This document shows, one piece after another, positions 8,988 through 9,683 of a DNA stretch of 13,125 nt (the stretch's first letter is position 1; every line of letters starts with the position of its first letter). The notes under the pieces are model-generated. The model did not search any database. It was not told the DNA's origin and saw nothing but the letters and a program-made list of their open reading frames with translations. The stretch comes from a virus (taxonomy: Duplodnaviria; Heunggongvirae; Uroviricota; Caudoviricetes). The translations under genes were made by a program, and so were the position numbers. Where the stretch lies: IMG/VR virus record IMGVR_UViG_2585427787_000002; one strand, 5' to 3'.

Positions 8988-9683
8988 AACGCACACCTCC
9001 GGAAATACCTTCCCCAAGATGCATCAGTTCTTCGTCCGTTCGCTCCGGTATCCCGTTCTCTTCCGGTAAAAGGCTGAAATCAGCCACCGCAGCATCACTG
9101 CTGCCGGACACCATTCTCACGATCAATGCCTTCAGCGAGGCAAACTGCGCATCCATCCACACATCACTGAAGCTCTGCATCCGGAAATAATCGCCCCACT
9201 CACCAAGCTCAGTGGCCGACATTTCCGACAGCATCCGCCGCCAGTCTGCCCGCCGGAACTCCCGGGCAAGCCGCATGACAAACTGCATTTCCCGCGTCAG
9301 GACTTTTCCGGCGTCAGCACCTCATGCTCCAAATCCCCGGCATTCTCAATGGCTCCCATACCGCTCAGCGACAGAACCATCTCCGCCCCCGCTCCCAGGG
9401 CATCATACGACCATGTTGTAATAACGGATGCGCAAAGCGTCTCAACATCCTGAGACTGTTCCGCATTCCACAGTGAGCGGGAAACCAGCCAGGCATTGAT
9501 ATCCATCCCCATCCGCAGAAAAGCAATCTGTCGTTCAGCCTCCGGCAGTTCTCCCTCTTCGGCATCAAACTTTGCCGTTCGCTGCTGAACAAACGCCAGA
9601 TATTCAATTCTCTGCAGCCCGGACAGCTCACTGAGCACCACGGACTGCTTTTCATAATTAAACGTGCCCTGTTTCAGAAACAT
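8959..9683 (-). CDS. T: Tail assembly chaperone G-T fusion, made by -1 programmed ribosomal frameshift near the end of G (shift site about 9303-9309)
   Basis: The -1 frame relative to G opens directly after a TGA at 9322-9324 and runs to the stop at 8959-8961 (...MQFVMRLAREFRRADWRRMLSEMSATELGEWGDYF...), overlapping the last 7 codons of G. This is the lambda G/GT arrangement. The T frame has no independent start with an RBS upstream of the overlap. Confidence 0.7.
9297..9683 (-). CDS. G: Tail assembly chaperone G (128 aa)
   Basis: MFLKQGTFNYEKQSVVLSELSGLQRIEYLAF... resembles lambda gpG (MFLKTESFEHNGVTVTLSELSALQRIEHLAL...). Tandem ATGs at 9686 and 9683; GGAG lies 3 and 6 nt upstream respectively, so 9683 is preferred and 9686 remains possible. 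The track's upstream extension would read through the terminator hairpin. Confidence 0.85.
   Translation of the reverse strand: MFLKQGTFNYEKQSVVLSELSGLQRIEYLAFVQQRTAKFDAEEGELPEAERQIAFLRMGMDINAWLVSRSLWNAEQSQDVETLCASVITTWSYDALGAGAEMVLSLSGMGAIENAGDLEHEVLTPEKS

What the first reader, a model, noticed from the sequence alone, without database searches (positions are those of the whole stretch)
9300..9324. G/T -1 recoding window with GGAAAAG in place of the lambda slippery heptamer
The T frame is exactly -1 relative to G and opens only after a TGA at 9322-9324, so any frameshift must occur within the last 7 codons of G (GTG CTG ACG CCG GAA AAG TCC TGA). The only slippery-looking sequence there is G-GAA-AAG (plus 9303-9309), versus lambda's G-GGA-AAG. 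A Lys AAG-to-AAA slip is well precedented in E. coli, but the upstream GAA-to-GGA re-pairing is not canonical. Either the P-site pairing tolerance is wider than usually assumed, or only the Lys tRNA slips.
Basis: partly seen in the sequence, partly recalled or inferred. Interest (0 to 1): 0.45.

Follow-up and report, generated by a model that had tools for sequence, protein, structure and literature searches.

The report
Variant frameshift site, phage tail chaperone
This is the lambda-type tail-assembly chaperone frameshift site of a very common E. coli prophage, but it uses the slightly imperfect slippery sequence GGAAAAG. That sequence, not lambda's textbook GGGAAAG, appears to be the usual one across this protein family, and genome annotations do not mark it.

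Summary
All genes lie on the minus strand. G (9686..9297, Pfam Phage_TAC_2) is overlapped by the T frame (Pfam Phage_tail_T), which is exactly -1. The T frame opens after TGA 9324-9322. The only shift-prone sequence before G's stop is G_GAA_AAG (9309..9303).

It sits at the position homologous to lambda's G_GGA_AAG and differs by one G-to-A change. T-frame homology (GKVL...) begins exactly there.

Across 22 divergent lineages the heptamer is invariant, including its synonymous third positions. CGGAAAAG is the longest invariant nucleotide run in the whole G gene, inside its most variable region. Of 48 family representatives at 50% identity, 36 end in [P/A/L]-E-K and only 4 in G-K.

The annotated T start (ATG 9288) is present in only 9 of 22 lineages, so frameshifting is the only conserved route to T.

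No conserved downstream RNA structure exists. A Shine-Dalgarno-like GAGG(TG) lies 10 nt upstream in most GGAAAAG lineages and is absent in lambda; it is a possible compensating stimulator.

Published data show the heptamer is weaker than lambda's but usable. No protein evidence exists. Verdict: a real, ordinary-in-kind -1 frameshift with a non-canonical, unannotated, family-dominant heptamer.

The parts
9297..9686 (-). Gene G, the tail assembly chaperone: 129 aa, ATG 9686, stop TGA 9299-9297.
   Evidence: Pfam PF06894 Phage_TAC_2, E=1.8e-39. Annotated as gpG in phages Ayreon and mEp460 and in RefSeq E. coli. Lies between V (PF16461) and H (tape measure), as in lambda.
9303..9309 (-). Slippery heptamer G_GAA_AAG. 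0 frame: (CC)G GAA AAG. -1 frame: GGA AAA (G).
   Evidence: Sequence read. Homologous position to lambda G_GGA_AAG. Invariant in 22 lineages and part of the longest invariant nucleotide run of the gene.
9322..9324 (-). TGA that closes the -1 (T) frame upstream. It marks the 5' limit of the recoding window.
   Evidence: Translation.
9297..9299 (-). 0-frame stop of G, one codon after the heptamer. It marks the 3' limit of the recoding window.
   Evidence: A stop at this same position, as TGA, TAA or TAG, is seen in most lineages.
8959..9303 (-). T-frame coding part of the predicted G-T fusion. First -1 codon read after the shift is GTC at 9303; stop TGA 8961-8959. The fusion is 242 aa.
   Evidence: Pfam PF06223 Phage_tail_T, E=5e-15. 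Fusion sequence built. T-frame homology to lambda and other lineages starts at GK of the heptamer.
9318..9323 (-). Shine-Dalgarno-like GAGGTG. The GAGG core is 10 nt upstream of the heptamer. Candidate 5' frameshift stimulator.
   Evidence: Duplex with the 16S 3' end is -9.2 kcal/mol, in the top 2% of windows in G. A positional peak appears across 18 lineages. Per-lineage empirical p values are 0.003-0.42. The codon at -14..-12 is GAG in 15 of 22 lineages and never GAA. The effective spacing for -1 shifts is 9-14 nt (review). Function is inferred, not shown.
9286..9288 (-). ATG used as the T start in database annotation. Probably not a genuine, conserved start.
   Evidence: Annotated start. 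Present in only 9 of 22 lineages. The best anti-SD duplex upstream is -4.3 kcal/mol, with GGG only 2 nt from the ATG.

Best explanation
**Proposed mechanism.** This is a programmed -1 ribosomal frameshift that makes the G-T tail-assembly chaperone fusion of a lambda-like siphophage.

- Most ribosomes translate G to TGA 9299-9297 and release the 129-aa gpG.
- A small fraction shift with tRNA-Glu on GAA (P site) and tRNA-Lys on AAG (A site). They slip back one base onto GGA and AAA.
- tRNA-Lys gains a better wobble pair (mnm5s2U with A instead of G).
- tRNA-Glu keeps C36-G and U34-A and swaps the middle A-U pair for a G.U wobble.
- Reading continues with GTC (Val, 9303) and gives a 242-aa fusion ...LTPEK-VLTREMQF... 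carrying the T domain.

The heptamer is intrinsically weaker than lambda's G_GGA_AAG. Only a few percent of product is needed in lambda. A Shine-Dalgarno-like GAGG(TG) 10 nt upstream may raise the rate by pairing with 16S rRNA, as in dnaX.

**Shown here:**
- the frame geometry;
- homology of the site with lambda's;
- nucleotide-level selection on the whole heptamer;
- lack of a conserved T start;
- lack of a conserved 3' structure.

**Inferred:**
- that the fusion is made, and at what rate;
- two-tRNA slippage;
- the role of the SD-like element.
For: **Context.** The full lambda tail module Z-U-V-G-T-H-M-L-K-I-J is present on the minus strand.

**Homology with lambda.**
- Lambda reads GCG GGA AAG, with -1 frame GKVFDGELSF.
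- The window reads CCG GAA AAG, with -1 frame GKVLTREMQF.
- So the sites are homologous and differ by one base.

**Conservation.**
- All 22 lineages examined at nucleotide level keep (C/G/T)NG GAA AAG. Their pairwise nucleotide identity goes down to 0.47 and G amino-acid identity down to 33%.
- CGGAAAAG is the longest invariant run in G among 10 lineage representatives.
- Of 23 degenerate codons with an invariant amino acid, only 3 have an invariant third base, and two of those are the heptamer's GAA and AAG. The hypergeometric chance is 0.012.
- 36 of 48 representatives at 50% identity end in [P/A/L]EK, and only 4 in GK.

**No conserved T start.** ATG 9288 is present in 9 of 22 lineages. In 3 lineages the first T-frame ATG lies after the conserved LAREF..DWRRML motif.

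**Published slippage data.**
- In the dnaX context in vivo: A_AAA_AAG 81%, G_GGA_AAG 57%, A_GAA_AAG 20% (Tsuchihashi and Brown data tabulated in PMC6787027).
- G.U penalties are about 5-8.5 kJ/mol, offset by -2.9 to -4.6 kJ/mol for AAG to AAA.
- Lambda needs only about 4% shifting (PMC3296357).

**Viability and prior annotation.**
- Free-living, propagated phages carry this allele: Ayreon, mEp460, cdtI, phi458, Tritos.
- The Gifsy-1 RefSeq record already describes T as made by translational frameshifting, on the same CCG GAA AAG TCC TGA.
Against: - There is no direct evidence that the fusion protein is made from this allele.
- In a reconstituted E. coli system, AUG GAA AAG (the same heptamer) was chosen as the 'unfavorable for slippage' control. 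It gave mainly 0-frame product at all EF-G concentrations (PMC6924986).
- A_AAG alone is near background without a stimulator (PMC4066793).
- No conserved downstream stimulatory structure exists.
- An in-frame G_GAA_AAG also occurs inside gene J at 1282..1276, so the motif by itself is not strongly avoided.
- The SD-like element is weak or absent in a few lineages (L307, L301, L310).
- The lineages are not statistically independent.
Confidence: 0.85

Rival explanations
1. Only tRNA-Lys slips. This would be A_AAG tetramer slippage, either in the A site or as peptidyl-tRNA after translocation. The preceding G_GA would play no part.
For: A_AAG is the most shift-prone tetramer in E. coli, at 5.6% with a strong pseudoknot (PMC4066793). 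The product is identical, so a junction peptide cannot distinguish the two mechanisms. [quoted passage not shown]
Against: Positions 1-3 are invariant in all 22 lineages. This includes the synonymous third base of the preceding codon, which is always G in CCG, GCG or CTG. The P-site codon is always GAA, never another NNA codon. A tetramer without a stimulator is at background. In the family representatives the residue before E is restricted to P, A or L, all of which can end in G.
Confidence: 0.1
2. T is made on its own, from ATG 9288 by initiation or by termination-reinitiation after G's stop 8 nt upstream. No frameshift is needed in this lineage.
For: GenBank and RefSeq annotate exactly this CDS, 9288..8959. 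The ATG lies 8 nt after the G stop, a geometry that can allow coupling.
Against: - The ATG is present in only 9 of 22 lineages. Elsewhere the codon is ATT, CTT, CTG, CGT, CAA, CGG or ACC.
- In three lineages the first T-frame ATG is at codon 26, inside the conserved domain.
- The Shine-Dalgarno context is poor: -4.3 kcal/mol with a 2-nt spacing.
- T-frame amino-acid homology runs upstream of the ATG to the heptamer.
- This reading does not explain nucleotide-level invariance of the heptamer in a hypervariable tail.
- In lambda the functional product is the fusion (review PMC5009743).
Confidence: 0.04
3. The heptamer is a decayed slippery site in defective prophages. The G-to-A change crippled G-T synthesis and the sequence is merely inherited.
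For: The allele is mostly seen in prophages. The heptamer is biochemically weaker than lambda's.
Against: - The same heptamer is kept across lineages whose synonymous sites differ at a median of 45%. It is also the majority state of the family.
- The T frame stays open, at about 110-120 codons, with a conserved domain in all lineages.
- Plaque-forming or induced phages carry it.
Confidence: 0.01

Closest known systems
Bacteriophage lambda gpG/gpGT programmed -1 frameshift (Levin, Hendrix and Casjens 1993; Xu, Hendrix and Duda 2004, 2013, 2014), as summarised in PMC5009743
   Same: The protein families are the same (PF06894 G, PF06223 T). The gene order V-G-T-H is the same. T is in the -1 frame overlapping the 3' end of G. 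The shift site is at the homologous codon pair, with Lys AAG in the A site and -1 frame Gly-Lys. There is no conserved 3' RNA structure.
   Different: The heptamer is G_GAA_AAG (P-site Glu, middle-position G.U after the shift) instead of the canonical G_GGA_AAG (P-site Gly). The 0-frame stop is 1 codon after the site instead of 5. An SD-like GAGG(TG) lies 10 nt upstream that lambda lacks (-9.2 against -2.1 kcal/mol). Product and rate are unmeasured.
E. coli dnaX -1 frameshift cassette (A_AAA_AAG with a 5' Shine-Dalgarno-like stimulator and a 3' stem-loop)
   Same: A-site Lys AAG slips to AAA. An SD-like element lies about 10 nt upstream of the heptamer, within the 9-14 nt range effective for -1 shifts. 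The dnaX variant A_GAA_AAG, with the same P-site tRNA-Glu, still shifts at 20%.
   Different: There is no 3' stem-loop. The expected rate is a few percent rather than about 50-80%. The product is an extended fusion rather than a truncated protein. The SD-like role is only inferred here.
G_GAN-type non-canonical heptamers of RNA viruses (insect-specific flaviviruses, umbraviruses, dianthoviruses, mesoniviruses), listed in PMC5009743 section 31
   Same: X_XX is G_GA, so the P-site tRNA re-pairs from GAN to GGA with a second-position non-Watson-Crick pair.
   Different: Those act on eukaryotic ribosomes, mostly with GAU and UUU-type A-site codons and strong 3' structures. This site is bacterial, uses Glu and Lys, and has no 3' structure.
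The 'twofour' (XXYYYY) motif class proposed by the PRFect tool from annotated phage tail-chaperone frameshifts (PMC10885494)
   Same: GGAAAAG fits the XXYYYY pattern. The authors also note that G:U pairing makes GAA to GGA re-pairing complementary.
   Different: That class was derived mainly from actinobacteriophage annotations and is untested. It was not linked to the lambda gpG family or to E. coli and Salmonella prophages.

Membership tests
Lambda-type G/G-T tail assembly chaperone -1 frameshift | A gpG homologue encoded between the major tail tube gene and the tape measure gene. | tested here: met
   PF06894 E=1.8e-39, flanked by V (PF16461) and H (PF06791, PF09718). The whole Z-U-V-G-T-H-M-L-K-I-J order is present.
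Lambda-type G/G-T tail assembly chaperone -1 frameshift | A T-domain ORF in the -1 frame overlapping the 3' end of G, without a start of its own. | tested here: met
   PF06223 E=5e-15 in the -1 frame. An ATG exists in this lineage but in only 9 of 22 lineages, with poor SD context.
Lambda-type G/G-T tail assembly chaperone -1 frameshift | A canonical X_XXY_YYZ slippery heptamer in the overlap. | tested here: not met
   The only candidate is G_GAA_AAG (XXYYYYZ). The P-site re-pairing has a middle-position G.U. It sits at the position homologous to lambda's G_GGA_AAG and is under nucleotide-level selection.
Lambda-type G/G-T tail assembly chaperone -1 frameshift | A G-T fusion protein produced at a few percent of G and required for tail assembly. 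| not testable with these tools
   No proteomic or reporter data were available. This is inferred from lambda and from conservation.
SD-stimulated bacterial -1 frameshift (dnaX or IS type) | A Shine-Dalgarno-like sequence 9-14 nt 5' of the shift site. | tested here: inconclusive
   In the window: GAGGTG, with the GAGG core 10 nt upstream, -9.2 kcal/mol. A positional peak appears across 18 lineages, and 9 of 18 have empirical p<0.1. The GAG codon is fixed in 15 of 22 lineages. The element is weak or absent in L307, L301 and L310, and the lineages are not independent.
SD-stimulated bacterial -1 frameshift (dnaX or IS type) | A 3' stem-loop or pseudoknot 5-9 nt after the heptamer. | tested here: not met
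   Consensus fold of 12 lineages gives -1.27 kcal/mol with no covarying pair. The window fold has z=-0.6 against shuffles.
Single-tRNA A_AAG tetramer slippage | Only Z_ZZN is constrained; the upstream three bases are free. | tested here: not met
   Heptamer positions 1-3 are invariant in 22 lineages, including a synonymous third position.
Transcriptional slippage | A homopolymer run long enough for RNA polymerase realignment (about 9 A or T in bacteria according to the review). | tested here: not met
   Only four A in a row are present. The review cites runs of 9.

The most novel reading that the evidence does not exclude
G_GAA_AAG is the ancestral and predominant shift cassette of the whole lambda gpG/gpGT family, and it works as a two-part signal. 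The first part is a deliberately weak heptamer, the very sequence ribosome biochemists use as the 'unfavourable' control. The second part is an rRNA-pairing GAGG element 10-13 nt upstream that tunes its rate. On this reading lambda's canonical, stimulator-free G_GGA_AAG is a derived minority solution. The trade-off between heptamer strength and 5' stimulator would be a natural, evolvable dial for the G:GT ratio.
Probability: 0.35. Interest if true: 0.55.

Novelty: new variant of a known kind. Interest (0 to 1): 0.42.

Why it matters
**Annotation.** The allele in this window is present at 95% identity or more in 1841 of 5426 complete E. coli genomes. RefSeq annotates T there as a free-standing CDS from a non-conserved ATG, with no slippage join. 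Predictors keyed to XXXYYYZ will miss the site. The real product is probably a 242-aa fusion.

**Mechanism.** A heptamer treated as non-slippery in reconstituted systems appears to be the one most often used in nature by this phage family. This gives a natural test case for three questions: second-position G.U tolerance in the P site, compensation by an SD-like 5' element, and how low-level frameshift ratios are set.

**Host interaction.** Both tRNAs on this site (Glu and Lys) carry mnm5s2U34. The host sulfur-relay and tRNA-thiolation effect on lambda G:GT may therefore apply, possibly differently, to a third of E. coli prophage tails. This last point is inference.

Tried and rejected
- **Downstream stimulatory RNA structure.** The consensus fold of 12 lineages and the single-sequence fold show nothing above chance. 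Rejected.
- **Other shift sites in the window.** None exists. In some lineages the recoding window shrinks to 5 codons and still contains only CCG GAA AAG.
- **Transcriptional slippage.** The A run is only 4 bases. Rejected.
- **Independent T start.** Examined and found not conserved.
- **Scan of one genome per species with a G alignment.** It returned only 11 loci because the derived patterns were too specific. It was still useful for the Serratia and Symbiopectobacterium outgroups.
- **Viral-contig scan with lambda G.** It gave only near-identical lambda alleles.
- **Literature searches for GGAAAAG or G_GAA_AAG as a tail-chaperone shift site.** Nothing relevant was found in the held library. 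The key survey paper, Xu et al. 2004 Mol Cell, is not held. I therefore cannot exclude that the variant heptamer is listed there.
- **Natural single-ORF G-T proteins (P0032, P0046).** These are singleton internal-deletion fusions, not evidence about slippage.
- **The 0-frame stop one codon after the heptamer as part of the signal.** The stop lies 0, 1 or 5 codons after the heptamer in different lineages, so it is not required.

Full report
**1. What is in the sequence**

The window carries, on its minus strand, a complete lambda-like tail module. It comprises a capsid gene, Z, U, V, G, T, H, M, L, K, I and J (Pfam assignments).

- G runs 9686..9297 and is 129 aa (PF06894, E=1.8e-39).
- The frame one base upstream of G's frame is closed by TGA 9324-9322. 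It then stays open to 8959 and encodes a PF06223 (Minor tail protein T) domain, E=5e-15.
- A ribosome can therefore pass from G into T only by moving -1 somewhere in GTG CTG ACG CCG GAA AAG TCC.
- The only shift-prone sequence there is G_GAA_AAG, at 9309..9303.

The 7-mer itself is not rare: 6 copies in the window against 1.8 expected. Chance is excluded by context, not by the motif.

**2. Homology with lambda**

Lambda G ends ...TCT GCG GGA AAG TGT TCG ACG GTG AGC TGA. After the shift it reads GGG AAA GTG TTC..., which is GKVFDGELSFALKLAREM. The window reads ...ACG CCG GAA AAG TCC TGA, and after the shift GGA AAA GTC CTG..., which is GKVLTREMQFVMRLAREF.

T-frame similarity therefore starts at the Gly-Lys of the heptamer. 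The two sites are homologous and differ by a single G-to-A change at heptamer position 3. That change is synonymous in the T frame and Gly-to-Glu in the G frame.

**3. Who carries it**

- The region is 98-99.8% identical to phages phi458, Ayreon, mEp460, cdtI, Tritos and others.
- It is present at 95% identity or more in 1841 of 5426 complete E. coli genomes.
- None of these records annotates a slippage join. T is annotated from ATG 9288.
- The RefSeq record of Salmonella phage Gifsy-1 (G 55% identical) calls T 'part of ... gpG by translational frameshifting'. It has the same CCG GAA AAG TCC TGA.

**4. Comparative test**

I collected 299 loci from viral contigs, genomes and phage records, giving 132 distinct G/T haplotypes. 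I added 12 more loci by protein look-up.

At nucleotide level, 22 divergent lineages all read NNG GAA AAG. Their pairwise nucleotide identity goes down to 0.47, their third positions at identical-amino-acid codons differ at a median of 45%, and G identity to the window goes down to 33%.

- Among 10 lineage representatives, the longest invariant nucleotide run in the entire G gene is the 8-mer CGGAAAAG. It lies in the otherwise most variable, length-variable acidic tail.
- Of 23 degenerate codons whose amino acid is invariant in 18 lineages, only three have an invariant third base. These are Phe-3 and the heptamer's GAA and AAG. The chance that both heptamer codons fall among the three is 3/253 = 0.012.
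- The third base of the preceding codon is always G, in CCG, GCG or CTG.
- E. coli normally prefers AAA (0.76) over AAG.
- At protein level, essentially all full-length G homologues at 54-100% identity end in (T/S)PEK(S/P/F).
- Of 48 full-length representatives of clusters at 50% identity, 36 end in [P/A/L]-E-K within 0-5 residues of the C-terminus. Only 4 end in G-K, and lambda's cluster is one of them.

So G_GAA_AAG is not a peculiarity of this phage. It appears to be the majority shift site of the gpG family, with lambda's canonical heptamer in the minority.

Sister lineages in Serratia and Symbiopectobacterium have CCG GGA AAG TCT TAG at the same place. A metagenomic lineage has CTG GCA AAA TAG, with -1 frame GGC AAA ATA.

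**5. Does T have its own start?**

ATG 9288 is the 8th T-frame codon after the heptamer. It is present in 9 of 22 lineages. The others have ATT, CTT, CTG, CGT, CAA, CGG or ACC.

The first T-frame ATG lies at codon 5, 8, 11, 12 or 26. In three lineages it falls after the conserved LAREF..DWRRML motif. Upstream of ATG 9288 the best anti-SD duplex is -4.3 kcal/mol, with the G run only 2 nt from the ATG.

Frameshifting at the heptamer is thus the only route to T that is conserved.

**6. One tRNA or two?**

If only tRNA-Lys slipped on A_AAG, heptamer positions 1-3 would be free to vary. They are invariant, including a synonymous site. This favours re-pairing of the P-site tRNA-Glu, whose anticodon is 5'-(mnm5s2U)UC-3'. 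On GGA it keeps C36-G and U34-A and has U35.G in the middle.

Published measurements bear on how good this is.

- In the dnaX context in vivo: A_AAA_AAG 81%, G_GGA_AAG 57%, A_GAA_AAG 20%. The last of these also loses the first-position pair (Tsuchihashi and Brown data tabulated in PMC6787027).
- The fitted penalty for the combined change (P1 G.C to A.C plus P2 A.U to G.U) is 8.5 kJ/mol. The AAG-to-AAA change contributes -4.6 kJ/mol, and G_GGA_AAG's own P3 penalty is +3.8 kJ/mol.
- By the paper's Boltzmann relation, my own arithmetic puts G_GAA_AAG between about 18% and at least 57% in that strongly stimulated context. This is an inference.
- Against this, Peng et al. 2019 (PMC6924986) used AUG GAA AAG, the same heptamer, as the 'unfavorable for slippage' control. 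They saw mainly 0-frame product at all EF-G concentrations.
- A_AAG alone is at background without a stimulator (PMC4066793).

Lambda needs only about 4% shifting, so a weaker heptamer is compatible with function. P-site G_GA heptamers are also used by several RNA virus groups (PMC5009743 section 31). The PRFect authors listed an XXYYYY motif class and noted the G:U explanation.

**7. Stimulators**

No conserved RNA structure follows the site. The consensus fold of 12 lineages gives -1.27 kcal/mol with no covarying pair, and the window fold has z=-0.6.

Upstream, the window has GAGGTG at 9323..9318. Its GAGG core is 10 nt from the heptamer. Its duplex with the 16S 3' end is -9.2 kcal/mol, in the top 2% of windows in G.

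- Anchored on the heptamer, the mean anti-SD pairing profile of 18 lineages peaks at about -6 kcal/mol for windows spanning -19..-7. The preceding 50 nt give -2 to -4 kcal/mol.
- Per-lineage empirical p values range from 0.003 to 0.42, and 9 of 18 are below 0.1.
- The codon at -14..-12 is GAG in 15 of 22 lineages and never GAA. Glu codons elsewhere in the last 25 codons are GAA 32 to GAG 19.
- Six of the other seven lineages have AGGT, AGGA, AGGAG or GGGG straddling the same place.
- Lambda and two other canonical-heptamer lineages score only -2.1 kcal/mol.
- The effective spacing for -1 stimulation by an internal SD is 9-14 nt (PMC5009743 section 36).

This pattern fits compensation of a weaker heptamer by an rRNA-pairing element. 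It is only suggestive, for three reasons: the tail is Glu-rich, the lineages are related, and a few lack the element.

**8. Verdict**

The site is a genuine member, by homology and architecture, of the lambda G/G-T -1 frameshift system. The one defining feature it fails is the canonical XXXYYYZ form.

The kind is well known. The variant heptamer, its dominance in the family, its absence from annotation and the possible SD-like partner are the points of interest.

I could not read Xu et al. 2004, which may already list this heptamer. No product data exist in what I could reach.

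Noticed in passing
window 9700..9723 (minus strand): Terminator-like hairpin GCCCCGGTTATCCGGGGC followed by TTTTTT, lying between the V stop and the G start. It is annotated as a terminator in phages Ayreon and mEp460. It could lower G, T and H transcription relative to V.
   Followed up: partly
window 1276..1282 (minus strand), inside gene J: A second in-frame G_GAA_AAG (TCG GAA AAG) with no SD-like sequence upstream. The -1 frame closes after 10 codons. This shows the heptamer alone is not strongly avoided in coding sequence.
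   Followed up: partly
L108:1599-1608 and L111:1605-1614 (metagenomic viral contigs): gpG homologues about 40% identical end in CTG GCA AAA TAG, and the T frame continues as GGC AAA ATA GCC. This is an even less canonical site: A_AAA directly before the stop, with poor P-site GCA-to-GGC re-pairing. GAGG or AGGGA again lies 10 nt upstream.
   Followed up: partly
L309, L310, L311, L308 and the lineage set: The 0-frame stop lies exactly one codon after the heptamer in most lineages, using TGA, TAA or TAG with different T-frame codons. It lies 0 codons after in L311 and 5 codons after in L310 and in lambda. It is unclear whether stop proximity affects shifting.
   Followed up: partly
RefSeq and GenBank records (L002, L003, L299): T is systematically annotated as a separate 109-aa CDS from ATG 9288, with no ribosomal-slippage join. 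The Ayreon record starts it even further downstream. Only the Gifsy-1 record mentions frameshifting.
   Followed up: yes
L085 (MAG labelled Bacillota bacterium) and L088 (soil MAG labelled Proteobacteria): Contigs in these metagenome-assembled genomes carry G genes 99% and 94% identical to this E. coli phage allele. These are probably mis-binned or contaminant contigs.
   Followed up: no
proteins P0032 and P0046: Singleton database proteins in which G and T are fused in one ORF by internal deletions. P0046 joins ...WSYDA directly to GKVLTREMQF. They are likely assembly artefacts or defective prophages.
   Followed up: partly
window 8959..9000 (minus strand): The tape measure gene H starts at ATG 8987, with a strong SD (GGAGGTG, 9000-8994) inside the end of T. 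It overlaps T's last 9 codons, so H initiation sits within the frameshift-dependent reading frame.
   Followed up: no
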